Assembly: GCA_043780835.1 (NCBI GenBank)
Contig: JAYWCB010000002.1
Span: forward strand, 27,466-91,465
DNA: 64,000 nt
Source: Minisyncoccota bacterium
Lineage (GTDB): Bacteria; Patescibacteriota; Minisyncoccia; Phycocordibacterales; UBA2100
Reading direction: 5' to 3'
Below the pieces are notes generated by a model, which saw only the letters and a program-made list of their open reading frames with translations, did not search any database and was not told the origin of the DNA. Both the position numbers and the translations under genes were made by a program. The first letter of the stretch is position 1. Each line of letters starts with the position of its first letter. Shown here piece by piece: positions 41,096-58,609 of this stretch.

Positions 41096-41908
41096 TCATT
41101 TCTTACCGATTGCCACCTCAATTTTTGCAAGATTCGACGCGACCGCCGCCTTGAATGCGGCCATACCCGCTGGAGCGGCAGCATATCCGTTGCCCGAATA
41201 CGCGCGTACAAATTGATCTTCAGTAAGTACACTGACCGCTTTTTCGGCGCGACGTGCCCACGTTTCTGCCTCTGTGAATGATTGGGTTTCATACAGCGCG
41301 ACCGCATATTCATTCATGAGCCACGGATTTTCCGGAAATTGCTGCATACCATCTACGAGCATATGCAACGCGCGATCAACGTGACCGCCTTTCAACATGA
41401 CCCATGCATAGTCGTTCATCGCAGACCAATTGAGCGACCCGTGAGGATTTAATCTAAGAAACGTAAGGAAATCACGACCCGCAGCGTCGTATTGTCCCGA
41501 AAATCCGTACGCAAGCGCGCGGATATAAAACGGCTTGTCGAAAGCTTCGCCCTGCAACGCGATTTCTTCATCAGCATAGACCCGTGCCTTTACAAGCTCA
41601 TTACGTAAGAACGCGATGCGTGCCAATTGGTAGTGAGCGCGCGGATACACAGGATCAATGTGCACGGTTTTAGAAAAGAAATATTCAGCGCGCATAAGAT
41701 CCTGGTGATCCGTTGCATCCATGAACTTCATGCCGTAACGAAATCCCCGCTCCCCACTCGGAAATCGCGAGAACGCGATCTTATCGCAGGCATACTCCAT
41801 TTCCCACCGCATTGTGTGCATATGTCCGGATGTTATACCGAACGCTATTATGGCCAGCGAGAGGCCTACTACAGCAGCGAGTTTATACGCCCGTCGTTCA
41901 CGTATCAT
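41096..41908 (-). CDS. N-terminally anchored TPR-repeat protein (paralog of 52035-52817 and 52834-53637)
   Basis: N-terminal TM, TPR-like repeats, conserved ...PENPWLMNEYAVALYE... block shared with the two paralogs. Confidence 0.5.
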   Translation of the reverse strand: MIRERRAYKLAAVVGLSLAIIAFGITSGHMHTMRWEMEYACDKIAFSRFPSGERGFRYGMKFMDATDHQDLMRAEYFFSKTVHIDPVYPRAHYQLARIAFLRNELVKARVYADEEIALQGEAFDKPFYIRALAYGFSGQYDAAGRDFLTFLRLNPHGSLNWSAMNDYAWVMLKGGHVDRALHMLVDGMQQFPENPWLMNEYAVALYETQSFTEAETWARRAEKAVSVLTEDQFVRAYSGNGYAAAPAGMAAFKAAVASNLAKIEVAIGKK

Positions 41909-41911: not shown

Positions 41912-42370
41912 TTACCGCGGTGACGAACCTTGTACGATGGGCAGGTTCTCGACAATCCATTCGTTGGTCCCGCCACCGATGCGTCTCAAATTCAGATACC
42001 CGTGATGCTCGAGATAACCGTAGCCAACACCGGATTCACGTCCGCCTGCACAAATCAGCACGATCGTCTTTCCTTTTTTTGGAAACTGGGAATACCCATC
42101 AAAAAAGCGCGGAAGCGGTACATTGACCGCGCCGAGTGCATGCCCTTTTTCGTATTCGCTTCCTGATCGCACGTCAACAAACATGTACGAATCGGGATGT
42201 GCGAGAAAAGCAGCCTGAAATTCCGTGGGCGAAATATCTTTCGTAGCCGGTTCAATGATATGCAGATTCTGAAGCGGCGTAAGATAGATAATGAGCACAC
42301 TAGCAACAACGCCAATGATAAGAAAAAAGATTGCGATTAACGAAATACGCATATAAGAAAAGTATAGCAA
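41912..42370 (-). CDS. Membrane-anchored rhodanese-domain protein (sulfurtransferase-like); paralog of 53669-54196
   Basis: N-terminal TM. Rhodanese core FVDVRSGSEYEKGHALGAVNVP...IVLICAGGRES (active-site Cys loop CAGGRES). Confidence 0.7.
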   Translation of the reverse strand: MLYFSYMRISLIAIFFLIIGVVASVLIIYLTPLQNLHIIEPATKDISPTEFQAAFLAHPDSYMFVDVRSGSEYEKGHALGAVNVPLPRFFDGYSQFPKKGKTIVLICAGGRESGVGYGYLEHHGYLNLRRIGGGTNEWIVENLPIVQGSSPR

Positions 42371-43045
42371 CTATTTTAAAGTGTCGACGCGATGTATGAG
42401 CGACTGAATATAGTCAATCGCTACGCGCGTGCCGTTCCCCCTATTCCCCTGCACAAGAATGGACTTCCCCGCTCCTTCAATTACAACACCCGGCGTTGCA
42501 TCAACCCCCGCACCTTTGCCCTCAGCAATGTCGTCGTCCACAATCTTTTTCGCAACACCACTTGCAACACAGGTTCGCACGGGGGCGACTGCAATTCCGA
42601 CGGCTTCTGCTGCCGCATATCCCGCATTATCCGACTGCGACGTCGCAACAGGTTGATCAACTTTGAATAAGCGCGATACGTATTTCCAATATGTTTCTTC
42701 CCCATCAATACGCGCGATGCACTCTGCGATCTGCGCTTTCAAATATGCACCAGTATGTTCTTCGCGTGGAAAATTTTTATATATCACAACGATGCCGCCC
42801 CCATATGCAGCGTGAAGTTTTCCATAAGATCTTTCGTGAAAGTCCTTGCAGTGTGGACACTCGTAATCTGTAAATATCGTCAGTGTAATCGGCGCAGCGA
42901 GATTTCCTATCACATGCCGGGCTGCGGTGTGGACTGCCGATTGTGACTCTTGTCTACCGGTGTACACGGTCGTGAACACCAATACCGCAGTGATGACGAC
43001 TCCGATGACCGCTATCAGTGCAGTAATAAAGCGCACCGGTTTCAT
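42371..43045 (-). CDS. Membrane-anchored DsbA-like thiol:disulfide oxidoreductase; paralog of 54201-54899
   Basis: N-terminal TM. Thioredoxin CPHC active site in FTDYECPHCKDFHE. Confidence 0.7.
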   Translation of the reverse strand: MKPVRFITALIAVIGVVITAVLVFTTVYTGRQESQSAVHTAARHVIGNLAAPITLTIFTDYECPHCKDFHERSYGKLHAAYGGGIVVIYKNFPREEHTGAYLKAQIAECIARIDGEETYWKYVSRLFKVDQPVATSQSDNAGYAAAEAVGIAVAPVRTCVASGVAKKIVDDDIAEGKGAGVDATPGVVIEGAGKSILVQGNRGNGTRVAIDYIQSLIHRVDTLK

Positions 43046-43047
43046 GC

Positions 43048-44211
43048 TTATCGATTTGATCCAGTGAAGTCACGAGTCTGCCACCCAAGACGAATAAGCA
43101 ATTTCTTGAAGTTGGGATCTTTTGCCGCGAGCGCTACGAGATAGCGTTTTTTTCCTCGCGCGTCGTCTTTTTCACGCGCAAAATAACGGAACGCACTTGA
43201 ATGTTCATACGCATTGGATGCATACATCGGTGAAAGAATCTTCCTGATGTCAGCAGCGCGCTTTTCTCCGTACACTTGATTCAAAAAGCGTGCATATTGG
43301 AAGCGCGCCAGTCCGTCGTCAGGAGTACCCTTTACAACGGCGTACGAGGCAAGCACTTGAGAGAAGATATGTTCCGTTTTTTCTGGCGTACTTTCACCGA
43401 TCACCGCGAGACTACGCTCTATAGATGCGCGAAGTAACAGAGTCGGCGGTACGAGGTTTGCCGTATTGGGGTCGTCTTTCGAACGCGCGAGATTATGTTC
43501 CGCCGCATCAATACGACGGCGCAATTCTGTCAGGTATTCTTTTTGTTCGGCATCAGAAAGCTTCTGGTCTTTGCCGGTAAATGAGCGTTCAAGTTTGGTT
43601 GCATACCAATCGGCAACATACAGTTCTGAAAATGCGAGCGGATAGAAGTCTGAGGCGTATGCAAAGAGTTCGCGCTGTGTAAGCGACAGATCTTTCGGAT
43701 GGTAGAATGTTGCGAACGGAGGCTGGGAAAATATCTGATCCTCGAACACATTTCCAAATTCCTGCCAAAATCGGCCGATAGTCTGTATCGCGTATGCGCG
43801 CACAATGGGAGTGGCTTGACCGTCGCGTGCAATATTCATGTACAAATCAATTGCACCACCCACATTGCCGCGATCATACTCCGCGAGTCCGATTTTATAT
43901 CGTATTTGATCTTTTTGTTCTTTATCAGGCGCAGTGCCGATTGCCGATTGATAGAGCGCGATTGCGCTCGTTGCATTACCGAGCCGGCGCTGGTTTTCTG
44001 CATCTGCAAATGAGCCATTCCCTTGCATGAGATGCATGTAGGGGTCATTGGTACTGGTGTATTTGCTTTTGCTCGGAAAAATCCCACTCAAAGGAATCCC
44101 CATAAGAGTGAGCACAAGAAAAACCACAACGATAATCGCAAGGATTGCTCCGAGCGCATTTCGAATCGGGTGTTTTCGTACGGTGGTTTCGGGTTTCATG
44201 TATTGAATCAT
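43048..44211 (-). CDS. N-terminally anchored helical-repeat (TPR-like) protein; paralog of 54907-56031
   Basis: N-terminal TM. Shared block IRYKIGLAEYDRGNVGGAIDLYMNIA vs IRFKIALATEESGDFANAIAQYKSIA. Confidence 0.4.
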   Translation of the reverse strand: MIQYMKPETTVRKHPIRNALGAILAIIVVVFLVLTLMGIPLSGIFPSKSKYTSTNDPYMHLMQGNGSFADAENQRRLGNATSAIALYQSAIGTAPDKEQKDQIRYKIGLAEYDRGNVGGAIDLYMNIARDGQATPIVRAYAIQTIGRFWQEFGNVFEDQIFSQPPFATFYHPKDLSLTQRELFAYASDFYPLAFSELYVADWYATKLERSFTGKDQKLSDAEQKEYLTELRRRIDAAEHNLARSKDDPNTANLVPPTLLLRASIERSLAVIGESTPEKTEHIFSQVLASYAVVKGTPDDGLARFQYARFLNQVYGEKRAADIRKILSPMYASNAYEHSSAFRYFAREKDDARGKKRYLVALAAKDPNFKKLLIRLGWQTRDFTGSNR

Positions 44212-44492
44212 CCATCATCTGCGTCACCTGATCCACCTGCATCGCCTCCACAATCATCATCGTCGCCACCGGTTGACACATCGACCACTATCGCCTCTGC
44301 ATGAGCAACGGGCACATCGAGGTGAACTCTATCTGCTATCAAAGCGTGCTCGGGATCGTGAATGGATGTGTGAGGACTGATTGCAAAAAAAAGACCGAGA
44401 AAACTGAAAAAGATTCCGCTCGCCCACGAGACTTGTTTGATCAGACGTTTTGCGCGGCGCTCGATGAATACCATGCATTCATCATATCTCAA
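44208..44492 (-). CDS. Small membrane-anchored peptide with Gly/Asp/Cys-rich C-terminal tail; paralog of 56035-56310
   Basis: Basic N-terminus, TM helix ASGIFFSFLGLFFAISP, conserved VAHAEAIVVDVS, tail TGGDDDDCGGDAGGSGDADDG. First gene of the minus-strand operon. Confidence 0.4.
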   Translation of the reverse strand: MRYDECMVFIERRAKRLIKQVSWASGIFFSFLGLFFAISPHTSIHDPEHALIADRVHLDVPVAHAEAIVVDVSTGGDDDDCGGDAGGSGDADDG

Positions 44493-45930
44493 TTACATGA
44501 AGGAATGGGCACCTGCTGGGGAAAAGGTTTTTCAAGCGAAGACTATCGGCCTGATATACACTACTGCCATGTTTCGTTTCAGGCGCATCGGCGAGTACTA
44601 CAAACGCCTCTTTTCAGTTTCTGAAATTGAAACGACACCGGTGCTGCAATGGATGTGCGGTGTCACACTCCTCTTCTTTTACGCCACCTTCACGCGCTGG
44701 ATTTACAGCGATGAAGCCACGATTGATGCGGTGAATCGCGGCGCCGCATACTGCTGGCCGTATTTTCAAAGCTGTCACGCTCTCTTTTTCCTGCATAGCT
44801 TACCTTACAGCTACGTGCAGATGACCTTTTACATGGGACTGCTTGTCAGTATGTGCGCAACCGTGTACGCAATGTGGAAAAAACGGTGGGCGCTGGTACA
44901 CGCACTCCTCTCGATACTTTTTGCATGGAAGCTGTGGGTGATGTTTGTGCTTTCATACGAGATTTCGGGCAATTACGACTACTACCACGTGTTCCTCACC
45001 TTTTTACTCCTTGTGGTGCCGCATAAAGAGTATTTCCTCAAACTATGCTTCGTGGTTCTCTATTTCCTTTCCGTTACAACAAAATTTCATCAAACGTGGA
45101 TCCTGGGCAGCTACTTTACGTCGCTCCATACCGGTACGCCTCTTTTTCCTGATGCGGTTGCGCCCCTGCTCACCAATACCGTGATCTTTATGCAGGTTAT
45201 CGGCAGTTGGTTTTTAATCAGCAGGAACTGGCCGCTACAACGCCTCTCGCTTACATACTTCACGATATTCCATTTGTATTCGGGGATTCTCGTGCGCTAC
45301 CTCTATCCCTCGATCGCACTTACCGCACTCCTCGTATTGTTTGGGCCCCTCTATCGGTACACGCCACCGCCGCGATCCTTACTCAAAGCGCTGCCGGGAG
45401 CACTGCTCATTCTTACGCAGTTCGCATTTCAGATGCCTGCTCATTTCATAGTCGGTGATCAGAAACTGACGCTCGAGGGTAATAAGTACGGCATGTACAT
45501 GTTCGAAGCGAATCATCAATGTATCGGGCATATGAAATATATTGAGCGACGCGACGGTCCGGTTGCGGAAACGTTTTCTCAGATTCCACCCGGTACACAA
45601 TGTCCGGGAGGGTCGTGTGTGACGAAGCGCCACACATACGCAGACGGAGCGTACACTGTGCGCGAAGAAACATGGGAGTCAGCCGTCGCTTGGAACCGCT
45701 GCGATCCCTATTTGTTCTGGCAGCGGACTCGTCGATTTTGTGAGTTGCCGCGGGCGGTACGGGTCGATATGCAGTTCGACCACTCAATAGACGGCGGGCC
45801 ATTTTATCGCATTATCGATGAGCGAGATATTTGCGGCCTCACCTATCATCCGTTCGTGCACAATAATTGGATTCTGCTTCCACCCGACGCAAAGATCGTC
45901 GGCTATCCCGTCCAAAATATCTTGCGATAA
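44437..45930 (+). CDS. Large polytopic membrane protein with Cys-containing C-terminal soluble domain (possibly HTTM/vitamin-K-carboxylase-like). Start uncertain (maybe 44572).
   Basis: About 8-10 TM helices, then conserved C-domain (ANHQC...QFDHSIDGGPFYRI.DE..IC.L.Y). Paralogous to the next gene. Confidence 0.4.
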   Translation: MIRRFARRSMNTMHSSYLNYMKEWAPAGEKVFQAKTIGLIYTTAMFRFRRIGEYYKRLFSVSEIETTPVLQWMCGVTLLFFYATFTRWIYSDEATIDAVNRGAAYCWPYFQSCHALFFLHSLPYSYVQMTFYMGLLVSMCATVYAMWKKRWALVHALLSILFAWKLWVMFVLSYEISGNYDYYHVFLTFLLLVVPHKEYFLKLCFVVLYFLSVTTKFHQTWILGSYFTSLHTGTPLFPDAVAPLLTNTVIFMQVIGSWFLISRNWPLQRLSLTYFTIFHLYSGILVRYLYPSIALTALLVLFGPLYRYTPPPRSLLKALPGALLILTQFAFQMPAHFIVGDQKLTLEGNKYGMYMFEANHQCIGHMKYIERRDGPVAETFSQIPPGTQCPGGSCVTKRHTYADGAYTVREETWESAVAWNRCDPYLFWQRTRRFCELPRAVRVDMQFDHSIDGGPFYRIIDERDICGLTYHPFVHNNWILLPPDAKIVGYPVQNILR

Positions 45931-45933
45931 GCT

Positions 45934-47760
45934 ATGCCTACAACGTCACCAACATTTATTGTATTAACAGAGCTTGTAGGACACGCTCCCGCGTCTCTCA
46001 ATCAAATACAGGCTGTGATTGCACCGCATGTGCATTCCCTGACGGTAACGTGGCTCGCGCTGTGGTGTACAGCGCTTGTCTTTGCAATCCGAGCACTCAT
46101 CAACAAAATCCGATTTCCGGAACTCGATGTGCCGAGTACGACTCCATCGATTTCATTCGAGCTACCACCGATACTCACTCGCATACGCGTCCTGTACAGA
46201 CGATTATTCTCTGTTTCTGAAATTGAGCATTCGCTCGTACTCAGATGGCTCTATGGGGCGATGCTGTTCGGATTCTTTACCTCGTTTGGAAATTGGATAC
46301 TTGATTCGTCGATCACCGCAGAAACTGCTTCGAAAGGTGCGCAGATCTGCTGGACGTATTTTCCGCAGTGTGGTCAGTGGTATGTGCTGCATACCCTGCC
46401 CTACGGATACTCATATACGAGTGTATACATGGTGCTGTACGCCGTCATGCTTGCCTGCGTTTTTGCGATGTGGAAGAAATCGTGGACGTCTGCGCATGCA
46501 TTGATGATGATCCTCTTTGTGTGGAAAGTGCTTGTGATGTTCGTGCTCACCGCTTCTATTCAGGGTGGCCCGAACTACCACCATGTACTGATCACCTTCG
46601 TGCTCTTATTTCTCCCGTATAAGGAGTTTTTCGCGCGCGTGTCGTTTGTCGTCATGTATTTCTTGTCGGCAGTCATCAAGCTTGATGAATCGTGGATACT
46701 GGGCGAATATTTTACATCGCTTCAGTCCGGACTGCCCGTGTTCGGAAACACACTTGCGCCCATCTTTACCAACGCGGTCATCGGCATGCAGATCATTTTG
46801 GGATGGTTTTTGCTCAGTGGAAGAAGTCGCATCCAAAAAACGGCGCTCGTGTGCTTTAGCGTGTTCCATATCTATGCAGGTATTTTTGTCGGGTACACGT
46901 ATCCCATACTCGCGCTCTCCATGCTGTGGATTCTGTTTGGACCACTGTTTCACGTAAGTACAATCCCGCTTAACCGTCGTTCGGTGGCAGGATGGATAAC
47001 ACTCATCGCGCTTTTTGCATTTCATGCACCGGCACATCTCATAGAAGGCGATCAGCGAATGACACAAGAAGGAAGTCGCTTCGGATTGAATTTATTTGAC
47101 GCGAATCATCAGTGTGCGAGTACCCTCTCGATCTACGCTACATCGAGTACACCTGTGCGCGATACGCAATGGTCCGCAAAACCGCGGCAAACCTGTGGTG
47201 ATTATATTTGTCTCACCACCACGATTACGCACGAAGCCGACGACATGGTTGTAACGCGCGAACGGTGGGAATCTCCCGTATCGTGGCAACGGTGTCGCGT
47301 ATCTACGTTTTGGTCAATTGCAAAACAACAGCATTGCAGCGATCCGGGTGTGCTTCGCGTGCAGATGCAATTTGATCACTCAATTGACGGTGGACCGTTT
47401 TACCGCATCGTAGACGAGCAGAATATTTGCACACTTTCATATCAGACATTTAGCCACAACGGCTGGATAAAAATGCCACCAGAAGCACCCATCGTCGGAT
47501 ATCCGGTCAAAAATGTTTTCCGCTACCAGCGTCAAAGCGGCAGCGCGTTCAATGAACGTGCCCCTCAAATTTCTACGTCTTCAGATATCATCGCGCTCAA
47601 CGAACTCGTGGGTAACGATCGGATACAGCGCACCAGTCTCCAGAGCGCGGTTGCGCCATACTTTCCGGTGCTCGTGTTCTTCTGGCGCGTTATCTGGACA
47701 ATGATGTGTGCACTCGTGATCAGTCGCGTGTGGTTTGCATATCAGCGAACCAAAAAATAA
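45934..47760 (+). CDS. Paralog of 44437-45930: large polytopic membrane protein (HTTM-like?) with extra C-terminal TM
   Basis: Colinear similarity, e.g. RLFSVSEIE, HVLITFVLLFLPYKEFF, QFDHSIDGGPFYRIVDE. Confidence 0.4.
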   Translation: MPTTSPTFIVLTELVGHAPASLNQIQAVIAPHVHSLTVTWLALWCTALVFAIRALINKIRFPELDVPSTTPSISFELPPILTRIRVLYRRLFSVSEIEHSLVLRWLYGAMLFGFFTSFGNWILDSSITAETASKGAQICWTYFPQCGQWYVLHTLPYGYSYTSVYMVLYAVMLACVFAMWKKSWTSAHALMMILFVWKVLVMFVLTASIQGGPNYHHVLITFVLLFLPYKEFFARVSFVVMYFLSAVIKLDESWILGEYFTSLQSGLPVFGNTLAPIFTNAVIGMQIILGWFLLSGRSRIQKTALVCFSVFHIYAGIFVGYTYPILALSMLWILFGPLFHVSTIPLNRRSVAGWITLIALFAFHAPAHLIEGDQRMTQEGSRFGLNLFDANHQCASTLSIYATSSTPVRDTQWSAKPRQTCGDYICLTTTITHEADDMVVTRERWESPVSWQRCRVSTFWSIAKQQHCSDPGVLRVQMQFDHSIDGGPFYRIVDEQNICTLSYQTFSHNGWIKMPPEAPIVGYPVKNVFRYQRQSGSAFNERAPQISTSSDIIALNELVGNDRIQRTSLQSAVAPYFPVLVFFWRVIWTMMCALVISRVWFAYQRTKK

Positions 47761-52034: not shown

Positions 52035-52817
52035 TTATTCACGAATCCCCTTTGCTGTGGCTGCTGATTCTATTTTCTGTAGATTTTGATGTGCTGCGTT
52101 TCGTAACGTTTCAAGGCCGGTTTCTGCCGCATCCGGAGCATTTCCGGGATATGCTGCGTGCCACTGTGCAGGTGTAATACCATCAACCGCCGCTGTTGCA
52201 CGCCGTGCCGCAACAAGCGCTTCGCGCAGTTTTCCTTGTTCAAAAAAGATCGTAGCGCGCACGCTCAGAAGCCATGGATTGTCTGGATACCGACTAAGTC
52301 CCGCGTCGACTACGATAAGCGCTTCGTCCAGCTTTCCTGTTTTGATCAAAACCCAGGCATAGTCTGTTCGGCCTTCCCAACCACCGGGATTCAGCTCCAC
52401 ATACGTTTTGTAATCTCGGGCGGCAGCATTGTAATCATTGAGATACCCCTCTATAAGACCGCGTAGATAGTACGCACTTGAACGAGATGTGTGGGTGTTA
52501 TTTTGGATTTCAATATTTACTTCTGCAAGTGCTTCGTGATACTCGCCGTTCAAAAAATGAATCCGCGCCAATTGATGGTGCACGAGCGGATATTGTGGAT
52601 CCAGGTGCGCCGCCCGTGAAAAGAAATATGCAGCTTCCGCTAAATCATATTCTGACTCATTCGGTCGGTCGATATGCTGCAGGCCGTATGTATAGGCGAG
52701 CTCTGCGCGCGGATGAAGTTTGAGATGCAGTCGTTCCCGTATGGCTCCGGGATCAATAAGAAATAGTCCGATAATAAATACAGCGGCTACAGTACATGAA
52801 ACGAGGGAGCGAGTCAT
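52035..52817 (-). CDS. N-terminally anchored TPR-repeat protein (paralog of 41096-41908)
   Basis: TM plus TPR; shared YPDNPWLLSVRATIFFEQGK block. Start trimmed to MTRSLV. Confidence 0.5.
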   Translation of the reverse strand: MTRSLVSCTVAAVFIIGLFLIDPGAIRERLHLKLHPRAELAYTYGLQHIDRPNESEYDLAEAAYFFSRAAHLDPQYPLVHHQLARIHFLNGEYHEALAEVNIEIQNNTHTSRSSAYYLRGLIEGYLNDYNAAARDYKTYVELNPGGWEGRTDYAWVLIKTGKLDEALIVVDAGLSRYPDNPWLLSVRATIFFEQGKLREALVAARRATAAVDGITPAQWHAAYPGNAPDAAETGLETLRNAAHQNLQKIESAATAKGIRE

Positions 52818-52833
52818 GAGCGCATTGTACTGT

Positions 52834-53637
52834 TTAGCGCGTACTAGATGTCGCGTTCTTTTGTATAGCCGCATGGATAAGCTTGATATTTCCCGCTATT
52901 GCTTCGCGCAGTTTTTCTATACCCTTTGCACCCATAGAAGGGTCGTTGCCTGGATTTACTTTGGCCCAATCATCTGGTTCAAGCAGTTGCGCCGCTTTGG
53001 CGGCTGATTCTGCAACGGCACGTGATTCATCGTAACGACCCATCTCATAGAGCGCCGTCGCTTTACTGTTCAGCAGCCATGCGTTTCCCGGTGTATATGC
53101 CAAGCCGGTGTCGAGCGCGACAAGCGCCTCCGTAAATTTATGCTCCTTCAGTAATATCCATGCGTAATCGTTGAATCCCGGCCAATTGTGCGACCCGCCT
53201 TTTAAGTATGTTTCGTAATCAGCCTGCGCCTCGGGATATTTGCCGAGGAATCCGTACGTAAGAGCGCGTACATAATACGAACTCGGTCTGGAATCAGGGT
53301 GGAGGTTTATTTGCAGTGTAATTTCGGCTAGCGCGGCATTGAGCATCCCTATGATGAACGACGTTCTCGCGAGCTCATGATATGCCATCGGATAGTTCGG
53401 ATCGAGTGCGACGGTTTTTAAATAGTACTGTCGCGCTCGACGAACATCGTATGCGCGATTCGGGACGGGTCCAAAATGATGCTCGGCAATTTCAAAAGCG
53501 TGTGCCGCCGTCGGTGAATGCATAAACGACACGTCTTCGTACGTATTTAAGATTTTTGTGCGCAAGGGCATTCGAAATGCGATCGCAAATACGACAGCAC
53601 ATAAAGACACAACAAGCATCATCTGTCGCGTGACCAT
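52834..53637 (-). CDS. N-terminally anchored TPR-repeat protein (third paralog)
   Basis: TM plus TPR; TPGNAWLLNSKATALYEMGR block. Start trimmed to MVTRQM. Confidence 0.5.
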   Translation of the reverse strand: MVTRQMMLVVSLCAVVFAIAFRMPLRTKILNTYEDVSFMHSPTAAHAFEIAEHHFGPVPNRAYDVRRARQYYLKTVALDPNYPMAYHELARTSFIIGMLNAALAEITLQINLHPDSRPSSYYVRALTYGFLGKYPEAQADYETYLKGGSHNWPGFNDYAWILLKEHKFTEALVALDTGLAYTPGNAWLLNSKATALYEMGRYDESRAVAESAAKAAQLLEPDDWAKVNPGNDPSMGAKGIEKLREAIAGNIKLIHAAIQKNATSSTR

Positions 53638-53668
53638 GACGCAAGTATACTGCGGTTCCCTCGCGGTG

Positions 53669-54196
53669 TTACTGATGCTCATCGACACCGGAAAATCCAT
53701 GTGGAATGTTATTTCCTTCTATCGGCAGTCCTTCGAGTGACCAATTTTCGAGCCCTCCTTTGATGCGAATAAGATTGAGAAAGCCCCAATTTTCCAAATA
53801 TCCATACGCGATTCCGGCAAGCCTGCCGCTCGTGCAAATCAGCGCAATCTTTTTACCGTGCTTCGGCAAGGTAAAATGTTCATCAATGAGATTTTCAATC
53901 GGTATATTTATCGCGCCAACTGCGTGGGCGGAATTGTAGACAGTCGTCGATCGCACATCGATCAACATATACTGATCGCGGTGCTGAGAATAATCAGCAT
54001 AAAACTCCTTCGGATCGATATCGTTTGATATCGGGGCGATCAGTGTGAGGTGTTTGAGTGGCGTCAGATAGATGAGCAGTATCGTCACAACAATGACGCC
54101 GATGAGTGATGCAATAAACATGAAGCGATCATCGAAAAGACTTACAGAGCCGTCTGCCTCTGCTTTTGCTCGATTCGAAAAATATCGTTTTAACAT
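53669..54196 (-). CDS. Membrane-anchored rhodanese-domain protein (paralog of 41912-42370)
   Basis: LIDVRSTTVYNSAHAVGAINIP...IALICTSGRLAG (Cys loop CTSGRLA). Confidence 0.7.
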   Translation of the reverse strand: MLKRYFSNRAKAEADGSVSLFDDRFMFIASLIGVIVVTILLIYLTPLKHLTLIAPISNDIDPKEFYADYSQHRDQYMLIDVRSTTVYNSAHAVGAINIPIENLIDEHFTLPKHGKKIALICTSGRLAGIAYGYLENWGFLNLIRIKGGLENWSLEGLPIEGNNIPHGFSGVDEHQ

Positions 54197-54200: not shown

Positions 54201-54899
54201 TTATTTTTTCCCTAAGAGATAGCTGATACTCGTCGCAATCTGCGAACGGTAATCCCCTTTTATGATGATACTGCGTCCTGCGGATTTCAAAACAATAGAC
54301 GGTGTTACGTCGAGTCCGGCAATTGCACCTTGGACCATGTCACGCCTTACCCGATCGGCGGGAGTTTGATTTTTTACACATTGATCGAATGACGCCGGAT
54401 TGACCCCGACGTTCACTGCGAAACGCGTGAGCGTCACCGGATCGACTGGTCCCTCGAGCCGAGGAGAGCTGTAGACATCTGTTACGAAGGTATCAAATGC
54501 CGCCGCGCCACGATCATTAAATACGCACTCGGCGGCAATCGCCTCACCATACGCACCCGTGTGCTTTGGCAGCGGCAGATGACGAAATGCGATCAATAAT
54601 GTATTGGCGAACTCTTTCTGCAATGCGGGGAGAGTCTGCAAATAGAGATGTTTGCAATACGGACAATCAAGATCCGAATACACAATCATTTGAACCGGAG
54701 CTTTCAAATCACCGGAATATATATGATCGTCTGCGGCCACACCAATAACCGCAAGCGGTGATTGATCATCAACGGTCCGGACCTGTTCGAGCGCACGCTT
54801 ATTATGCAAAACAGCCAGTAGAATAAATACACCGATACCGACCGCAGAAATTACTAAGATTAGAATTTTCGAATCACGTTTGATTTTGGAACTTCGCAT
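54201..54899 (-). CDS. Membrane-anchored DsbA-like thiol:disulfide oxidoreductase (paralog of 42371-43045)
   Basis: CPYC active site in YSDLDCPYCKHLY. Confidence 0.7.
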   Translation of the reverse strand: MRSSKIKRDSKILILVISAVGIGVFILLAVLHNKRALEQVRTVDDQSPLAVIGVAADDHIYSGDLKAPVQMIVYSDLDCPYCKHLYLQTLPALQKEFANTLLIAFRHLPLPKHTGAYGEAIAAECVFNDRGAAAFDTFVTDVYSSPRLEGPVDPVTLTRFAVNVGVNPASFDQCVKNQTPADRVRRDMVQGAIAGLDVTPSIVLKSAGRSIIIKGDYRSQIATSISYLLGKK

Positions 54900-54906: not shown

Positions 54907-56031
54907 TTACTGTGCGAAGTCGCTTGGCTGCCAGCCGAGCGATATCAGATACGCCTTGAATGAAGGTGCAATATCGGCAATTTTAATCAGTGCCATATGA
55001 TTATATTGCGCCTGATTGTTTCTTCGAACACTTCTGAAGAAGCCTTCGACTGATTGAACATACGTATTTTTAACACCCGTCACAGGTTTGAGCGTGGACA
55101 CGGTAGATATAATTTCGTCCGCTCGCGATTCGCCATAGAACGTCGCGAGTGCAGCCGCGTATAAATAGCGCGGGTAGCTGTCCTGCCCCGGTACGGTGGC
55201 GGCAGTAGCTGAAAGGCTGAGCGCGTCTCGGAAAGGCGCAATCACGTCCTCAATCTTTGCAACACCTGCAGTCGCAAGTTTACGCTCCACAATTCCTTCT
55301 CTTGTGAGGGCATCTATAAGCGGACCGGTTTCGTTTGCATCTTTGCGCATGCGATCAAGCTCGGGTTGCGCCTGCGATTGTAGTTCTTTAATTTTCGCGA
55401 TGTCTGCAATGCCTGCGGGACTGGTACTTGCGTTGTGTAATGTTTTTGATAGGTCCGTCGCATACCAATCCGCTTGACGCATAAGAGAAGGAGCGAGCAG
55501 GTAGAGCGAAGAAGCGTACTCATTCAAGCGTCTGAGCGCCATTTCGGTATCGACACCTTGCGCCATCTCTGCGTAGGGTGAATCTTTGAAAATCTCATCG
55601 CTCACCTCAGGATGGGAATAATTATATGTGTAGTAGAACGATGCGAGCTGTTGCACGGCATACGCTCTTATTTGCTTGAAATATCGCTCATTTGAAGCGA
55701 TTGATTTATATTGAGCTATAGCGTTGGCAAAATCCCCGCTCTCCTCAGTCGCGAGCGCAATTTTAAACCGAATTTGTGCTTCTGCTTGCGGATCAGAAGC
55801 ATTGGCAAGAGATGCCTGAAGTGCCTGCTTTGCCTCATCATACTGGCCTGCTTTCATGAGAGTCATCGCGTGAGAAAACGACTGATCTTCTTGGGTCAGT
55901 ACTTTATACGGCGTGCGAGATGCATCGTATTGATTTTGAGATCTTACGGCGGCAAACCAATACACCAAAAGTGCAACCGCGATAACGAAGAGGACGCCGA
56001 GTGCGAGTGATATATCTTTTCGTAGATTCAT
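54907..56031 (-). CDS. N-terminally anchored helical-repeat (TPR-like) protein (paralog of 43048-44211)
   Basis: TM plus helical repeats. Confidence 0.4.
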   Translation of the reverse strand: MNLRKDISLALGVLFVIAVALLVYWFAAVRSQNQYDASRTPYKVLTQEDQSFSHAMTLMKAGQYDEAKQALQASLANASDPQAEAQIRFKIALATEESGDFANAIAQYKSIASNERYFKQIRAYAVQQLASFYYTYNYSHPEVSDEIFKDSPYAEMAQGVDTEMALRRLNEYASSLYLLAPSLMRQADWYATDLSKTLHNASTSPAGIADIAKIKELQSQAQPELDRMRKDANETGPLIDALTREGIVERKLATAGVAKIEDVIAPFRDALSLSATAATVPGQDSYPRYLYAAALATFYGESRADEIISTVSTLKPVTGVKNTYVQSVEGFFRSVRRNNQAQYNHMALIKIADIAPSFKAYLISLGWQPSDFAQ

Positions 56032-56034: not shown

Positions 56035-56310
56035 TTAGCCGCAACTACCGCCACTACCACCACTATCACATCCGGATCCACTGTCACTTCCTCCGGCGCT
56101 TCCGGCTCCGGAGTCAACCACTTCTGCGTGAACAGTTCCTGCGCCCAACACAGTGTCGCTCAAATGAGCAGATGATTTTGGCGAAGCCGTATAAAAGAGT
56201 ACGGTAAAAAATCCCACGGCTATGATGGAAGCTGCGGTTATCTTTCGGTAGTATCTGGAAAACGTCGAAATACCTTGTACGAGAAATGCCATATACGTAT
56301 TATTCCACAA
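56035..56310 (-). CDS. Small anchored peptide with Gly/Ser/Cys-rich C-terminal tail (candidate RiPP/TOMM-type precursor)
   Basis: TM AASIIAVGFFTVLFYTASP, conserved TVHAEVVDS, tail GAGSAGGSDSGSGCDSGGSGGSCG. Divergent from the YcaO-SagB genes. Confidence 0.45.
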   Translation of the reverse strand: MWNNTYMAFLVQGISTFSRYYRKITAASIIAVGFFTVLFYTASPKSSAHLSDTVLGAGTVHAEVVDSGAGSAGGSDSGSGCDSGGSGGSCG

Positions 56311-56399: not shown

Positions 56400-57839
56400 A
56401 TGATTCTTGATGCTGAGCTGTTTACTGTAGTCAAGAATGCCCACAATACGGACAGTTCTCAAAGTCCGATCGCGCGGTTTATTGCCTACATTGAAAAAAA
56501 ACTCGGCGTTGTTGTAGCGTACGATAAACACGACCTGCCCTATGGAAGGACAGATCTTTCGCAACAATTTACACTTGCTGCAAAACTTGAACACGCCGGT
56601 ATCCTTCGCACGTTCGGTCCAATCATTCCATTGGCGGACGAACCGCAAATGCGCTTATGGGGAACCCGCGACACGACCGATCAACACGCCGGTGGCGCAA
56701 CAATGAATGACGACGCGGCGGCATTGACCGCAGCGCTTGCAGAGGGTTTGGAGCGCTCAATTTGGAGAACGAAAAACGATTATTTTGACGGTGCTATCCG
56801 TGCGACAGTCGGAGAAATTGCGATCAAAGGCAGGTACATCGCCCCAAAATCCTTTGCAAGTTTCTCTGAGGAGCAGCGGGAAGGAAACTCACAACTACGC
56901 CTGCCTCCGGAAGCAACGTACACATGGATTAAGGGTAAATCATTGGTATCAAACGAAGCAACCTATGTGCCTGCTCAGACCGTGAGCGGTAATCGCGCCT
57001 GGCTTACCGATCCGTACAGTGAACCACGAATCCGTATACCGATTACCATCGGTCTCGCCACGTGGCCTACACGATCGGGTGCGCAACTCGCCGGCGCACT
57101 GGAAGTGATCGAACGAGAGGCGTATATGATTATGTGGCTCAACCAGCTCACGCTTCCCCACATTCGCTTGGAAGATTTACAAGCAAAGTACCCCGAACTT
57201 GAATCGGTATTATCTGACTGTAAACGATATCGCATCAAGCCGCACGTGATACCCATGCTTACCGATGCACCTGTGCATGCGGTCAGTGTCATTTTAGAGG
57301 ACATGTCGGGCAACGCACCCCGTTTTATTATCGGGTTAAAAGCCCATCGGTCGTTTGCGCTTGCGGTCGAAAAAGCCATTACCGAAGCCCTTCGTGGACG
57401 AGCATTTTGCCGAAGAGATTTTCTTCCCAAGGGCGACTGGGACACCTCGCGATCCGTAGACACCGTTGGTCATTATGAGCGACTCTATTATTGGAGCCAT
57501 CCGCAAAACGCGCGCAAATTGGAATTTCTGGTGAGCGGCGCGGAAATAGCCGTGCCGGAAACAACATGGGAAAATTTGTCGATCGAGGAACATCTCAAAA
57601 TGGTTACCGCATGGTGCGCGACGAATCAATTCGATTGCATTTCGGTATCATTGAGCACTAAAAAAAACAATCCCACGTCTTGGTACATTGAAATGGTGGT
57701 TATCCCGCAACTGCAACATACGTATCTCGACGAAAAACTCCGTCAACTCGGTGGAACGCGCCGCTTAGAGGTACCGAAACTGTTCGGCTATTCACCACGA
57801 CCCGCACCATACCTTGACGACCCTCATCCGTACGCATGA
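56400..57839 (+). CDS. YcaO-domain protein (ATP-dependent peptide-backbone-activating enzyme; cyclodehydratase/thioamidase family)
   Basis: GGATMNDDAAALTAALAEGLERSIW matches the YcaO ATP-binding region (G.G......A..SAL.EA.ER, ExxER). About 480 aa, typical size. Confidence 0.6.
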   Translation: MILDAELFTVVKNAHNTDSSQSPIARFIAYIEKKLGVVVAYDKHDLPYGRTDLSQQFTLAAKLEHAGILRTFGPIIPLADEPQMRLWGTRDTTDQHAGGATMNDDAAALTAALAEGLERSIWRTKNDYFDGAIRATVGEIAIKGRYIAPKSFASFSEEQREGNSQLRLPPEATYTWIKGKSLVSNEATYVPAQTVSGNRAWLTDPYSEPRIRIPITIGLATWPTRSGAQLAGALEVIEREAYMIMWLNQLTLPHIRLEDLQAKYPELESVLSDCKRYRIKPHVIPMLTDAPVHAVSVILEDMSGNAPRFIIGLKAHRSFALAVEKAITEALRGRAFCRRDFLPKGDWDTSRSVDTVGHYERLYYWSHPQNARKLEFLVSGAEIAVPETTWENLSIEEHLKMVTAWCATNQFDCISVSLSTKKNNPTSWYIEMVVIPQLQHTYLDEKLRQLGGTRRLEVPKLFGYSPRPAPYLDDPHPYA

Positions 57840-58596
57840 GCATATGACGATTTTTCTTTCACATCTGCATACTGCTTTACGCGCAACGCGATTCACCCGC
57901 CGAGGCGCGACGCGTCGACCTGAAGACGTGCCGCAAGGCACACATAAAGAATACAGTCGTATGGAACGTATTTCACTGCCGGAACCCGTGGTATTGGATA
58001 TTTCTCTACCCGAAGCGCTCTCCCGCCGTGTTTCATCACTGAATCAGGGTGGGGATACGCCGCTTTCGCTGCAGGATATTGGCACCGTATTTGGACTTGC
58101 GCTCAGACAGCACGCCGATTCGAATCACAGAAATTATCCGTCCGGTGGCGCACTCTATCCGATTGAAACGTATTTGATTGCAACATCACTGGAAGGTGCG
58201 GCTCCCGGGGTGTACCACTATCACCCCTCTGCACATGCACTTGAATACTTATGGGAACTCGAGCCGAATTTTGATATCACCCGACTCGTTCAGAAACCGG
58301 AGTTTCTCTTACCTTCCGCACTGATCGTGTTCACGAGTGTATGGCGTCGATCATCCGCAAAATACGGCGATTTCACGTACGGACTTTCATTACTCGAGGC
58401 AGGCCACATGTCGGAAAACGTGCTTCTCGTCTCAAGTGCACTCAAGCTCCAGGTGCGCCCCATGGCAGGATTCGACGACCAGCGAACGAATGATCTTTTG
58501 GACCTTGACCCTGATCTCGAGCAAGCGGTGCACTCTATTACGCTTTCGAAAGGCGCGCATGTGCAGACTCGCGCCCGTATGGATGCAGACGAATGA
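57814..58596 (+). CDS. SagB/McbC-type FMN-dependent dehydrogenase (nitroreductase fold)
   Basis: Hallmark NYPSGGALYPIETY (PSAGALYP-type motif). Size about 250 aa. Start may be the second Met at 57844 to avoid overlap with ycaO. Confidence 0.6.
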   Translation: MTTLIRTHEHMTIFLSHLHTALRATRFTRRGATRRPEDVPQGTHKEYSRMERISLPEPVVLDISLPEALSRRVSSLNQGGDTPLSLQDIGTVFGLALRQHADSNHRNYPSGGALYPIETYLIATSLEGAAPGVYHYHPSAHALEYLWELEPNFDITRLVQKPEFLLPSALIVFTSVWRRSSAKYGDFTYGLSLLEAGHMSENVLLVSSALKLQVRPMAGFDDQRTNDLLDLDPDLEQAVHSITLSKGAHVQTRARMDADE

Positions 58597-58609
58597 GCAA
58601 TGCTCGTGT

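What the first reader, a model, noticed from the sequence alone, without database searches (positions are those of the whole stretch)
44208..44492. Paralogous anchored peptides with conserved V(A)HAE motif and Gly/Ser/Asp/Cys-rich tails (44208-44492 and 56035-56310)
Both are about 90-aa first genes of their operons, with basic N-terminus, one TM helix ending in SP, a conserved ...VHAE.VVD.S... block, then a low-complexity tail. Tail 1 is TGGDDDDCGGDAGGSGDADDG. Tail 2 is GAGSAGGSDSGSGCDSGGSGGSCG. Tail 2 is microcin-B17-like (heterocyclisable Cys/Ser between Gly). Tail 1 is acidic with a single Cys (metal binding?). They could be substrates, scaffolds, or metal/redox carriers for the rhodanese-DsbA machinery.
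Basis: seen in the sequence. Interest (0 to 1): 0.6.

Follow-up and report, generated by a model that had tools for sequence, protein, structure and literature searches.

The report
Unnamed exported peptide-precursor family in Patescibacteria
The two small genes are real members of a large, so far unnamed family of membrane-targeted peptides in ultra-small (CPR/Patescibacteria) bacteria. They are always paired with a membrane-anchored repeat protein, and the copy next to the YcaO and SagB genes is probably turned into a thiazole/oxazole peptide like microcin B17.

Summary
Both ORFs (88 aa, 44208-44474; 85 aa, 56035-56292; minus strand) share one plan:
- a basic N-terminus and one hydrophobic helix;
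- a linker of about 20 aa and an A/V-H-A-E block;
- a 29-aa Gly/Asp/Ser/Cys tail.

They belong to a family with 361 clusters at 50% identity. It has no Pfam or NCBIfam model. Its consensus junction is (I/V)-A-H-A-D-(A/V)-P.

A profile built without the window sequences picks out only these two of 974 window ORFs (E 7e-17 and 1e-14). In 20 of 20 loci the peptide gene lies directly upstream of a ~380-aa gene for a membrane-anchored TPR protein.

Accessory genes vary between loci:
- YcaO + SagB-type dehydrogenase + a PRTase-propeller fusion;
- rhodanese and DsbA;
- an unknown polytopic membrane protein;
- AMMECR1 fusions.

Tails next to YcaO are 2-3 times richer in Cys/Ser/Thr.

Best reading (confidence 0.5): these are precursors of exported, modified peptides. 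Tail 2 would be an azole (LAP-type) substrate. Tail 1 would be a substrate of other, extracytoplasmic tailoring. Cleavage after A-x-A is inferred, not shown.

YcaO-nitroreductase clusters with an 84-aa putative precursor have been reported in CPR genomes (PMC7298704). The leader, the TPR partner and the YcaO-less loci appear to be undescribed.

The parts
44208..44474 (-). Peptide 1 (W1), 88 aa plus stop. The longest ORF starts at TTG 44492, and the ATG at 44474 is the likely start.
   Evidence: ORF list; translation; the identical 88-aa product is held in the public collection as P0011; leave-out family HMM E 1.2e-14.
44379..44429 (-). W1 hydrophobic segment SWASGIFFSFLGLFFAI, preceded by the basic n-region MVFIERRAKRLIKQV (+5/-1).
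   Evidence: Mean Kyte-Doolittle hydropathy of the best 17-mer is 1.77.
44295..44306 (-). W1 conserved junction motif A-H-A|E. A degenerate copy, VHLDVP, lies just upstream.
44211..44297 (-). W1 tail/core EAIVVDVSTGGDDDDCGGDAGGSGDADDG: 29 aa, net charge -10, 1 Cys, no Lys or Arg.
   Evidence: It shares the ending GSGDADDG(Y) with P0008/L022, which also neighbours a Mem497-type gene.
56035..56292 (-). Peptide 2 (W2), 85 aa plus stop.
   Evidence: The identical product is P0001, called as a gene on a 92.8-kb NCBI contig and on a Logan contig. Leave-out family HMM E 6.7e-17.
56191..56241 (-). W2 hydrophobic segment ITAASIIAVGFFTVLFY, after the n-region MAFLVQGISTFSRYYRK (+3/0).
56122..56133 (-). 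W2 junction motif V-H-A|E.
56038..56124 (-). W2 tail/core EVVDSGAGSAGGSDSGSGCDSGGSGGSCG: 29 aa, 2 Cys spaced C-x9-C, 8 Ser, 11 Gly.
43048..44211 (-). Partner 1: 387-aa protein with an N-terminal TM helix and a TPR-like superhelix. Its start overlaps the stop of peptide 1 (ATGA).
54907..56031 (-). Partner 2: 374-aa protein with an N-terminal TM helix and a TPR-like superhelix. It starts 3 nt after the stop of peptide 2.
42371..43045 (-). DsbA-like oxidoreductase 1, with an N-terminal TM helix and a CPHC active site.
   Evidence: Thioredoxin_4 E 2.4e-22 and DSBA E 6.7e-9. The CPHC motif is visible in the sequence.
54201..54899 (-). DsbA-like oxidoreductase 2, with a CPYC active site.
   Evidence: Thioredoxin_4 E 3.3e-15. 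Sequence.
41912..42370 (-). Rhodanese 1, with an N-terminal TM helix and the active-site loop CAGGRES.
   Evidence: PF00581 E 3.8e-13. 49% identical to rhodanese 2.
53669..54196 (-). Rhodanese 2, with the active-site loop CTSGRLA.
   Evidence: PF00581 E 2e-12.
41096..41908 (-). Downstream TPR protein of cassette 1, with an N-terminal TM helix.
   Evidence: TPR_19 E 1.4e-11. Sequence.
52035..53700 (-). Two downstream TPR proteins of cassette 2 (52834-53700 and 52035-52874).
   Evidence: Homologues follow the partner gene in L002, L011, L013, L016, L023, L024 and L025.
56400..57839 (+). YcaO, 479 aa, transcribed divergently from peptide 2.
   Evidence: PF02624 E 4.9e-40. TIGR03604 SagD-type E 1.4e-42, 146 bits, below the 219-bit cutoff. 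The C-terminus is PHPYA.
57814..58596 (+). SagB-family FMN dehydrogenase (azoline oxidase type).
   Evidence: TIGR03605, 114.7 bits against a cutoff of 78.4. PDB sequence relatives include CyaGox thiazoline oxidase, McbC and BmdC.
58337..60253 (+). Phosphoribosyltransferase + PQQ-like beta-propeller fusion. The true start is probably near 58600. A paralogue lies at 48146-49891.
   Evidence: It is conserved after YcaO-SagB in L009, L012, L016, L020, L023 and L024, and is also present in L008, L011, L014, L021 and L022.
44437..47760 (+). Two paralogous polytopic membrane proteins (Mem497 at 44437-45930 and Mem608 at 45934-47760), transcribed divergently from peptide 1. Function unknown.
   Evidence: 46% identical to each other. 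No Pfam, NCBIfam or PDB sequence hit. Homologues lie next to peptide cassettes in L022, L023 and L026.

Best explanation
The two ORFs encode precursor peptides of a Patescibacteria-specific system that matures and exports peptides.

Each precursor has two parts:
1. A conserved leader: a basic n-region, a hydrophobic signal-anchor-like helix, a flexible linker of about 20 aa, and the junction (I/V)-A/V-H-A|D/E.
2. A 24-45-aa acidic Gly/Ser/Asp/Cys core that carries the function.

Proposed mechanism:
- The short precursor is finished before it is targeted to the membrane.
- Where YcaO and SagB are present (cassette 2), they convert Cys/Ser of the core into thiazoles/oxazoles in the cytoplasm (inferred).
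- The hydrophobic helix then inserts N-in/C-out, which puts the acidic core outside the cell (predicted from charge distribution).
- Outside, the translationally coupled membrane-anchored TPR protein binds the conserved junction or the core and acts as a chaperone or presenter (inferred from a fold with no catalytic features and from strict co-occurrence).
- DsbA can close the C-x5-9-C loop, and the anchored rhodanese can act on the thiols (inferred).
- The core is released by a signal-peptidase-type cut after A-x-A (inferred from the -3/-1 pattern).

Peptide 2 is the azole-type (LAP-like) substrate. Peptide 1 is poor in Cys/Ser. It is the YcaO-independent subtype, probably tailored by the neighbouring Mem497/Mem608 membrane proteins and/or by DsbA and rhodanese.
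For: Real, conserved genes:
- 361 clusters at 50% identity match the family profile end to end, and nearly all of the 150 listed are 65-125 aa.
- The leave-out HMM finds only these two window ORFs.

Conserved leader and junction:
- A at -1 in 157 of 157; A or V at -3 in 156.
- H or Y at -2 in 135; D or E at +1 in 156; P at +3 in 136.
- This is the pattern of small residues at -3 and -1 with a variable -2 that type I signal peptidases recognise (established knowledge).
- Flank charges favour N-in/C-out: +2.8 before the helix, +0.2 after it.

Constant partner:
- A peptide gene lies directly 5' of the ~380-aa gene in 20 of 20 loci, with overlapping or near-abutting stop and start codons.
- The partner is a TM helix plus a TPR superhelix with no catalytic fold.

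RiPP-like logic:
- Tailoring genes differ between loci while the leader and partner stay the same.
- Between the closest relatives the leader is more conserved than the core: 0.84 vs 0.40, 0.72 vs 0.49, 0.81 vs 0.58, and 1.0 vs 0.84.

Link to YcaO/SagB:
- The two genes lie divergently next to the peptide gene in W2, L002, L009, L012, L016, L020, L023 and L024.
- The SagB-type enzyme is related to known azoline oxidases.
- The Cys+Ser+Thr fraction of the core is 0.20-0.41 in YcaO loci and 0.06-0.23 in YcaO-less loci. One-sided Mann-Whitney p is 0.001, or 0.0095 after collapsing close lineages.

Prior report: LAP-type clusters (YcaO plus nitroreductase, with an 84-aa putative precursor beside YcaO) were reported in CPR genomes, 51 of them Parcubacteria (PMC7298704).
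Against: - No E1-like or Ocin-ThiF-like leader-binding partner (RRE) and no ABC exporter or leader protease was detected in the neighbourhood.
- The YcaO scores below NCBIfam's SagD-type cutoff (146 against 219 bits).
- I know of no described LAP leader that contains a hydrophobic, membrane-inserting segment. A cytoplasmic ATP-dependent enzyme would have to act before export.
- The A-x-A site lies 12-39 residues (mean 20) beyond the hydrophobic segment. This is longer than canonical signal-peptide c-regions (from my own knowledge), so the general signal peptidase may not be the protease, or there may be no cleavage at all.
- About half of the loci lack YcaO, and 15 of 157 cores have no Cys.
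- In some pairs the core is more conserved than the leader (L021/P0022: 0.83 vs 0.25).
- The cassette sits in core-genome context, next to rplC-rplD, in the window and in L024. That is unusual for an antibiotic cluster.
- There is no chemical or proteomic evidence.
Confidence: 0.5

Rival explanations
1. The peptides are not processed. They stay as N-in/C-out membrane-anchored proteins. Their acidic, thiol-bearing tails would work on the cell surface as redox, sulfur (persulfide) or metal carriers or scaffolds for the co-anchored DsbA, rhodanese and TPR proteins. The conserved AHAD(V/A)P block would be the docking site for the TPR partner rather than a cleavage site.
For: - Every downstream cassette protein (partner, DsbA, rhodanese, TPR) has an N-terminal TM anchor.
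- DsbA has CPHC/CPYC motifs and rhodanese has an active-site Cys.
- Rhodanese accompanies the peptide in many YcaO-less loci: L010, L011, L013, L015, L021, L025 and L026.
- L008 adds a TM-anchored DsrE-like protein.
- The motif is too far from the helix for canonical signal-peptidase cleavage.
- The cassette lies in core-genome context beside ribosomal protein genes.
Against: - Small residues at -3 and -1, a variable -2 and an invariant Ala at -1 are what a signal-peptidase-type protease requires. A docking motif alone does not explain this pattern.
- Tail composition co-varies with the cytoplasmic YcaO/SagB genes. That is unexpected for a purely extracytoplasmic carrier.
- 10% of tails have no Cys.
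- DsbA and rhodanese are absent from many loci, including L002, L009, L012, L020 and L024.
Confidence: 0.27
2. The pair is a secreted-signal and receptor module analogous to Rap-Phr or NprR-NprX cassettes. The small gene would encode an exported pro-peptide, and the adjacent TPR protein would be its receptor.
For: - A small exported-peptide gene is translationally coupled to a ~380-aa TPR protein.
Against: - The partner has an N-terminal membrane anchor and no HTH, phosphatase or other output domain.
- The cores are long, low-complexity and acidic, unlike the short specific mature peptides of Rap-Phr-type systems (from my own knowledge).
- The modifying enzymes in the neighbourhood are left unexplained.
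Confidence: 0.06
3. The ORFs are spurious or non-coding: chance ORFs in divergent promoter regions with low-complexity translation.
For: - They have no Pfam or NCBIfam hit.
- Their tails are low-complexity.
- There is no clear Shine-Dalgarno sequence or promoter match.
Against: - Hundreds of end-to-end homologues share the same architecture.
- The position and translational coupling to the partner gene are conserved.
- The leave-out HMM gives E 1e-14 to 7e-17.
Confidence: 0.01

Closest known systems
Linear azol(in)e-containing peptides / TOMMs (microcin B17 with McbBCD, streptolysin S with SagBCD), including the LAP-type YcaO-nitroreductase clusters already reported in CPR genomes (Sharrar et al. 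2020, PMC7298704)
   Same: - A small precursor gene lies next to a YcaO cyclodehydratase and a SagB/McbC-type FMN dehydrogenase.
- The core is Gly-rich with Cys/Ser (W2: GSGC, GGSCG), as in microcin B17.
- The leader-plus-core layout is the same.
- The CPR report describes an 84-aa putative precursor beside YcaO. Its size and position match this family, though its sequence could not be retrieved.
   Different: - No E1-like C protein or RRE partner, no dedicated ABC exporter or immunity gene, and no detectable leader protease.
- The leader contains a signal-anchor-like hydrophobic helix and an A-x-A|D junction.
- The constant partner is a membrane-anchored TPR protein.
- The same peptide-partner pair occurs in many loci with no YcaO at all (including window cassette 1).
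- The YcaO scores below the SagD-type family cutoff.
Sec-type signal peptides cleaved by type I signal peptidase (A-x-A rule)
   Same: - A positive n-region and a hydrophobic h-region of 17-20 aa.
- Small residues at -3 and -1, a variable -2, and an acidic +1.
   Different: The distance from the h-region to the site is 12-39 aa (mean 20), not the few residues of a canonical c-region. Asp at +1 and Pro at +3 are conserved far more strongly than signal-peptidase specificity needs.
Extracytoplasmic thiol-maturation machines built from membrane-anchored TPR chaperones plus thioredoxin-fold proteins (cytochrome c maturation CcmI/CycH with CcmG/CcmH)
   Same: - A TM-anchored TPR protein stands next to TM-anchored thioredoxin-fold oxidoreductases and acts on an exported Cys-bearing polypeptide.
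- One downstream TPR protein gives a weak TPR_CcmH_CycH hit.
   Different: There is no haem-handling gene and no CXXCH motif in the peptides. The resemblance is architectural only.
SdpC / SdpAB of Bacillus subtilis (a Sec-exported, signal-peptidase-cleaved, disulfide-containing toxin peptide that needs a polytopic membrane protein for maturation). Recalled from memory.
   Same: An exported peptide with a signal-type N-terminus, a disulfide, and an adjacent polytopic membrane protein of unclear chemistry (compare Mem497/Mem608 beside cassette 1).
   Different: Mem497/Mem608 give no NCBIfam or Pfam hit of any kind, so none to an SdpB- or HTTM-type model. There is no sequence similarity between the peptides.

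Membership tests
TOMM / LAP (microcin B17-type) biosynthetic system | A YcaO cyclodehydratase (D protein) is encoded with the precursor. | tested here: met
   - Cassette 2: YcaO lies 107 bp away on the divergent strand, with PF02624 E 4.9e-40. The best NCBIfam model is TIGR03604 SagD-type at E 1.4e-42, but 146 bits is below the 219-bit cutoff.
- Cassette 1: no adjacent YcaO. The nearest is about 12 kb away.
TOMM / LAP (microcin B17-type) biosynthetic system | An FMN-dependent SagB/McbC-type azoline dehydrogenase (B protein). | tested here: met
   TIGR03605 scores 114.7 bits against a cutoff of 78.4. PDB sequence relatives are CyaGox, McbC and BmdC.
TOMM / LAP (microcin B17-type) biosynthetic system | An E1-like (C protein) or Ocin-ThiF-like partner carrying the leader-binding RRE, either fused to YcaO or adjacent to it. 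| tested here: not met
   The YcaO is 479 aa, and only residues 104-438 match a known domain. No neighbouring ORF hits ThiF/E1, cyclodehydratase docking or RRE models in Pfam or NCBIfam. A cryptic RRE in the YcaO N-terminus or in the PRTase-propeller protein was not excluded structurally.
TOMM / LAP (microcin B17-type) biosynthetic system | A core peptide rich in heterocyclisable Cys/Ser/Thr. | tested here: met
   - W2 core: 34% Cys+Ser+Thr. Cores in YcaO loci range from 20% to 41%.
- W1 core: 14% (1 Cys, 2 Ser, 1 Thr). It resembles the YcaO-less class, so the feature is not met for cassette 1.
TOMM / LAP (microcin B17-type) biosynthetic system | Azole or azoline heterocycles in the mature product. 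| not testable with these tools
   This needs mass spectrometry of the co-expressed or native peptide.
Curated RiPP precursor families (Pfam-A, NCBIfam) | A sequence match to any curated model, which would include the curated precursor models. | tested here: not met
   Both peptides give 0 families in Pfam-A and in NCBIfam. None of the homologues returned carries a Pfam domain or a name other than 'hypothetical protein'.
Sec signal peptide with a type I signal peptidase site | A positively charged n-region followed by a hydrophobic h-region. | tested here: met
   The net charge is +2.8 before the helix and +0.2 after it. The mean hydropathy of the best 17-mer is 2.31 across 157 members. W1 and W2 are detailed.
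Sec signal peptide with a type I signal peptidase site | Small uncharged residues at -3 and -1 (A-x-A). | tested here: met
   A at -1 in 157 of 157; at -3, A in 141 and V in 15; -2 is variable (H, Y, Q, S, N). The motif was located with a pattern that requires Ala at -1, so this count is partly circular. However, every member did contain such a site at the aligned position.
Sec signal peptide with a type I signal peptidase site | A short c-region, so that the cleavage site lies a few residues after the h-region. | tested here: not met
   The linker is 24 aa in W1 and 19 aa in W2. The family mean is 20 (sd 5).
Rap-Phr / RRNPP-type peptide-receptor cassettes | A cytoplasmic TPR receptor with an effector or HTH domain that binds a short mature peptide. 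| tested here: not met

The most novel reading that the evidence does not exclude
The family defines a new, Patescibacteria-wide class of ribosomal peptide products with these properties:
- The leader is itself a membrane-insertion signal.
- The recognition or presentation factor is an extracytoplasmic membrane-anchored TPR protein, not a cytoplasmic RRE.
- The acidic thiol-bearing core is tailored by interchangeable modules on both sides of the membrane. These include YcaO/SagB azole formation, DsbA disulfide formation, rhodanese persulfidation, an unknown polytopic membrane enzyme, AMMECR1 fusions and PRTase-propeller proteins.

Because the cassette sits in the core genome next to the ribosomal protein operon, the product may be a housekeeping surface or secreted factor for the episymbiotic lifestyle (host attachment, or metal or sulfur acquisition) rather than an antibiotic.
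Probability: 0.25. Interest if true: 0.8.

Novelty: new variant of a known kind. Interest (0 to 1): 0.6.

Why it matters
CPR/Patescibacteria have tiny genomes with very few recognisable biosynthetic clusters. Almost nothing is known about the molecules they put on or outside their cells to interact with hosts.

What this analysis adds:
- It turns two 'hypothetical' ORFs into members of a family of hundreds, with a precise signature. That signature is a signal-anchor leader, the (I/V)AHAD(A/V)P junction and a Gly/Asp/Ser/Cys core. An obligate TPR partner accompanies it.
- It supplies the candidate precursor family for the YcaO-nitroreductase clusters found earlier in CPR by genome mining.
- It shows that the same precursor-partner pair is used with other, unknown tailoring genes.

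If the mechanism holds, it would be an example of a RiPP-type pathway whose leader doubles as an export signal. It would also give short, directly testable peptide targets for heterologous expression and for peptidomics of CPR-rich samples.

Tried and rejected
1. A single-protein scan of genome contigs with the 374-aa partner found nothing. The alignment-based scans then worked.
2. Pfam and NCBIfam searches on the two peptides gave no hits.
3. I tested whether Mem497/Mem608 are HTTM, vitamin-K-carboxylase or SdpB-like:
   - no Pfam hit even at E up to 5, and no NCBIfam hit;
   - no PDB sequence hit at E up to 10;
   - Foldseek against the PDB gave nothing below E 0.05.
   The identity of these proteins is left open.
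4. I considered thioamidation (a TfuA-less YcaO fed by rhodanese or DsrE). I think it less likely because YcaO is always paired with a SagB-type azoline oxidase. In addition, the rhodanese is TM-anchored and occurs in YcaO-less loci. It is not excluded.
6. I looked for a peptidase, ABC exporter or E1-like gene in the flanks of the window and of L023, L002 and L024. None was detected.
7. Promoter and terminator scans of both divergent intergenic regions were uninformative.
8. I tried to retrieve the 84-aa CPR precursor sequence from Sharrar et al. 2020 to test identity with this family. It is not in the text or the held supplements.
9. 'Hypervariable core, conserved leader' is true for the closest pairs but not for all pairs, so I do not use it as a general rule.
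10. Looking up cluster members to name the organism returned no names.
Full report
**1. Observation**

Both ORFs are on the minus strand at the stated coordinates. The in-frame ATG codons give 88 aa (44208-44474) and 85 aa (56035-56292). The public protein collection holds products of exactly these lengths, P0011 and P0001, from a 92.8-kb NCBI contig.

Translation of the sub-features confirms the anatomy:

| Feature | W1 | W2 |
|---|---|---|
| n-region | MVFIERRAKRLIKQV | MAFLVQGISTFSRYYRK |
| Hydrophobic segment | SWASGIFFSFLGLFFAI | ITAASIIAVGFFTVLFY |
| Linker | 24 aa | 19 aa |
| Junction | AHA\|E | VHA\|E |
| Core (29 aa) | EAIVVDVSTGGDDDDCGGDAGGSGDADDG | EVVDSGAGSAGGSDSGSGCDSGGSGGSCG |

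The two peptides are only weakly similar to each other (E 8e-5). The three genes that follow each of them are clear paralogues:
- a ~380-aa protein (30% identity, E 4e-41);
- a DsbA-like protein (27% identity, E 5e-27);
- a rhodanese (49% identity, E 1e-47).

Each cassette continues with one or two TPR proteins. The stop of each peptide gene overlaps or nearly abuts the start of the ~380-aa gene: ATGA in cassette 1 and a 3-nt gap in cassette 2.

**2. The ORFs are conserved genes of a large family**

*Search starting from the partner.* The 374-aa partner has few word-sharing relatives. Every contig that carries one has a small ORF directly upstream with the same plan. Alignment-based scans of genomes and metagenomes added loci from Patescibacteria MAGs labelled Nomurabacteria, Parcubacteria and Kaiserbacteria. 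All of these loci that include upstream DNA have the small ORF.

*Search starting from the peptide.* A profile of 15 peptides retrieved 17 proteins of 65-118 aa. None has a Pfam domain, and the only names given are 'hypothetical protein' (Peribacteria, Parcubacteria). Four of their contigs were inspected. Each has a 374-391-aa gene directly downstream. The most divergent of these (L023) still matches the partner profile (hhalign 93%, E 2.4e-7).

Overall, peptide and partner are adjacent in 20 of 20 loci.

*Exhaustive profile search.* A search of 1.84 billion cluster representatives gave 361 hits at E <= 1e-3. Nearly all of the 150 listed are 65-125 aa and match end to end.

*Leave-out test.* A profile built from 155 members without the window sequences scores only these two ORFs among 974 window ORFs. 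The E-values are 6.7e-17 and 1.2e-14, and the next best is 0.86.

**3. Family signature (157 members)**

- **n-flank and helix:** net charge +2.8 before the helix and +0.2 after it. The best 17-mer has a mean hydropathy of 2.31.
- **Linker:** mean 20 aa (sd 5).
- **Junction:**

| Position | Residues (count of 157) |
|---|---|
| -4 | V/I |
| -3 | A (141) or V (15) |
| -2 | H (109), Y (26), or Q/S/N |
| -1 | A (157) |
| +1 | D (147) or E (9) |
| +2 | A/V |
| +3 | P (136) |

- **Core:** mean 36 aa, made of G 34%, D 17%, S 17%, C 7.6% and A 7.4%. K and R are almost absent, and the mean net charge is -6.6.
- **Cysteines:** 142 of 157 cores have at least one Cys and the mode is two, usually 5-8 residues apart. 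In 75 cores the last Cys lies within two residues of the C-terminus.

The window copies are atypical. They have Glu at +1 and no Pro at +3. W1 also carries a degenerate duplicate of the junction (VHLDVP-VAHAE).

**4. Neighbourhood**

*Constant components.* These are the peptide and the ~380-aa partner, usually followed by TPR proteins.
- The partner model (pLDDT 83.7) is an N-terminal TM helix followed by an all-alpha TPR-like superhelix.
- The DsbA proteins (CPHC, CPYC), the rhodaneses (active-site Cys present) and the downstream TPR protein all begin with a TM helix. This fits an extracytoplasmic, membrane-tethered set.

*Variable components*:

| Component | Loci |
|---|---|
| YcaO + SagB-family dehydrogenase, transcribed divergently from the peptide (usually followed by a PRTase + PQQ-like propeller fusion) | W2, L002, L009, L012, L016, L020, L023, L024 |
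| Rhodanese | Most loci |
| DsbA | W1, W2, L011, L013, L026 |
| TM-anchored DsrE-like protein | L008 |
| 650-690-aa AMMECR1-domain fusion immediately upstream of the peptide | L011, L014 |
| Polytopic membrane protein of unknown family (Mem497 type) | W1, L022, L023, L026 |

The window's two cassettes, the two Mem497 paralogues, both PRTase-propeller genes and YcaO-SagB together form one ~19-kb region (41.1-60.3 kb).

**5. Do the tails belong to the enzymes?**

- The SagB-like protein passes the NCBIfam cutoff. Its PDB sequence relatives are azoline oxidases: CyaGox, McbC and BmdC.
- The YcaO's best model is the SagD type, although it scores below the cutoff. All YcaOs of these loci end in PHP(F/Y)(A/S). 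From memory, this resembles the C-terminal proline-rich motif of azoline-forming YcaOs. I treat it as a lead, not a test.
- Cores next to YcaO-SagB contain 20-41% Cys+Ser+Thr. Cores in loci where the flanks are visible and lack YcaO contain 6-23%. One-sided Mann-Whitney p is 0.001 (9 vs 5), or 0.0095 after collapsing close lineages. The samples are small and the test is not fully corrected for phylogeny.
- W2 (34%) falls in the YcaO class and W1 (14%) in the other class.
- W1 and P0008/L022 share a single Cys and the ending GSGDADDG(Y). Both neighbour a Mem497-type gene. This second link between tail type and neighbour rests on only two observations.

**6. Mechanism proposed**

*Shown:*
- family membership and architecture;
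- charge asymmetry;
- gene order and start-stop coupling;
- the enzyme families of the neighbours;
- the covariation of composition with YcaO.

*Inferred, in order:*
1. The 85-88-aa chain is completed before membrane targeting. This allows cytoplasmic YcaO/SagB to make azoles on core 2.
2. The helix inserts N-in/C-out.
3. The tethered TPR partner binds the junction or the core.
4. DsbA and rhodanese act on the thiols.
5. A signal-peptidase-type protease cuts after A-x-A and releases a 24-45-aa acidic peptide.

The pattern at -3, -2 and -1 is the strongest argument for cleavage. The 20-aa distance from the helix is the strongest argument against the ordinary signal peptidase doing it.

*Main weaknesses:*
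- There is no RRE or E1-like partner, no exporter and no protease.
- A membrane-inserting leader would be unusual for a LAP.
- About half the loci lack YcaO.
- The cassette lies immediately upstream of rplC-rplD both here and in L024. This suggests a housekeeping role rather than an accessory antibiotic role.

I put this explanation at 0.5.

**7. Comparison with what is known**

Sharrar et al. 2020 (PMC7298704) reported a CPR cluster with YcaO, nitroreductase and peptidase genes and an 84-aa putative precursor beside YcaO. They also reported 110 similar clusters in 93 further CPR genomes, 51 of them Parcubacteria. The existence of LAP-type clusters in CPR is therefore already known from genome mining. 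Their precursor's size and position fit this family, but I could not retrieve its sequence.

I found no description of the following in the searched literature or in Pfam or NCBIfam:
- the leader signature;
- the obligate TPR partner;
- the YcaO-less cassettes;
- the rhodanese, DsbA, Mem497 and AMMECR1 associations.

Membership in canonical TOMM/LAP systems is partial. The D and B proteins and a Cys/Ser-rich core are met for cassette 2. The C protein/RRE was tested and not met. For cassette 1, neither an adjacent YcaO nor a Cys/Ser-rich core is met.

**8. Verdict**

The two ORFs are a new variant of a known kind: RiPP/LAP-type precursors with a novel, export-type leader and a novel partner. 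They belong to a sizeable unnamed Patescibacteria family. Interest is 0.6.

Noticed in passing
window 44437-45930 and 45934-47760 (+): Two tandem paralogues (46% identical) of a polytopic membrane protein with a Cys-rich C-terminal beta-rich domain. They have no Pfam, NCBIfam or PDB sequence hit. Homologues lie beside peptide cassettes in L022, L023 (next to a second YcaO-SagB pair) and L026. AF2 with two sequences failed (pLDDT 45).
   Followed up: partly
window 48146-49891 (+) and 58337-60253 (+): Two paralogous fusions of a phosphoribosyltransferase domain with a PQQ-like beta-propeller, with no signal sequence. The fusion follows YcaO-SagB in most loci, but it also occurs in loci with no YcaO in the fetched flanks (L011, L014, L022) and on the short contigs L008 and L021. 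Its role is unknown. It could be a peptide-binding or tailoring component.
   Followed up: partly
L011:4617-6560 and L014:4634-6694: In two loci without YcaO, a 650-690-aa protein with an AMMECR1 domain lies directly upstream of the peptide gene on the same strand. Its C-terminal part gives weak hits to A-macroglobulin TED and pectate-lyase models.
   Followed up: partly
window 39088-41099 (-) and L024:12350-14381: Cassette 1 sits immediately upstream of a small conserved membrane protein (p168) and rplC-rplD. L024 has the same order: peptide, partner, TPR, a p289-like gene, a p168-like gene, L3, L4. The module therefore occupies a conserved position inside the ribosomal S10 operon region.
   Followed up: partly
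L008:2300-2752: A TM-anchored DsrE-like protein upstream of rhodanese and the peptide gene contains the sequence TIPLAHADQEF. This matches the peptide family's junction motif (I/V)P.AHAD. It may be coincidence or a shared recognition site.
   Followed up: no
window 50748-52004 (-): A 418-aa protein with a signal or anchor sequence and many Cys residues, with no Pfam hit. It lies at the end of cassette 2. L023 has a 59%-identical copy in the same position and a second, distant copy between SagB and the propeller gene.
   Followed up: partly
window 49857-50726 (-): A 289-aa anchored protein with a Tyr-rich low-complexity stretch (YYEAYYQAYYQAYYQSYYQ) and Pro/Ser/Gln repeats. Its C-terminal domain is conserved in L015 and L024.
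   Followed up: no
window 47801-48028 (-): A 75-aa secreted Cys-rich protein with a classical short signal peptide (…AGAAQA|QS). It matches DUF6719 (E 1.8e-7) and lies between Mem608 and the PRTase-propeller gene.
   Followed up: no
L023:14460-16633: The closest relative of the window locus carries a second YcaO-SagB pair with no peptide gene of this family beside it. Instead it is next to a 175-aa membrane protein, a 62-aa ORF and the Mem497 homologue.
   Followed up: no
L002:2294-3352 and flanks: In L002 and L003 a Fic-domain gene takes the place of the PRTase-propeller gene after YcaO-SagB. The locus is flanked by nucleotidyltransferase/HEPN (MNT-HepT) pairs. In L004 a DDE transposase interrupts the YcaO side.
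   Followed up: no
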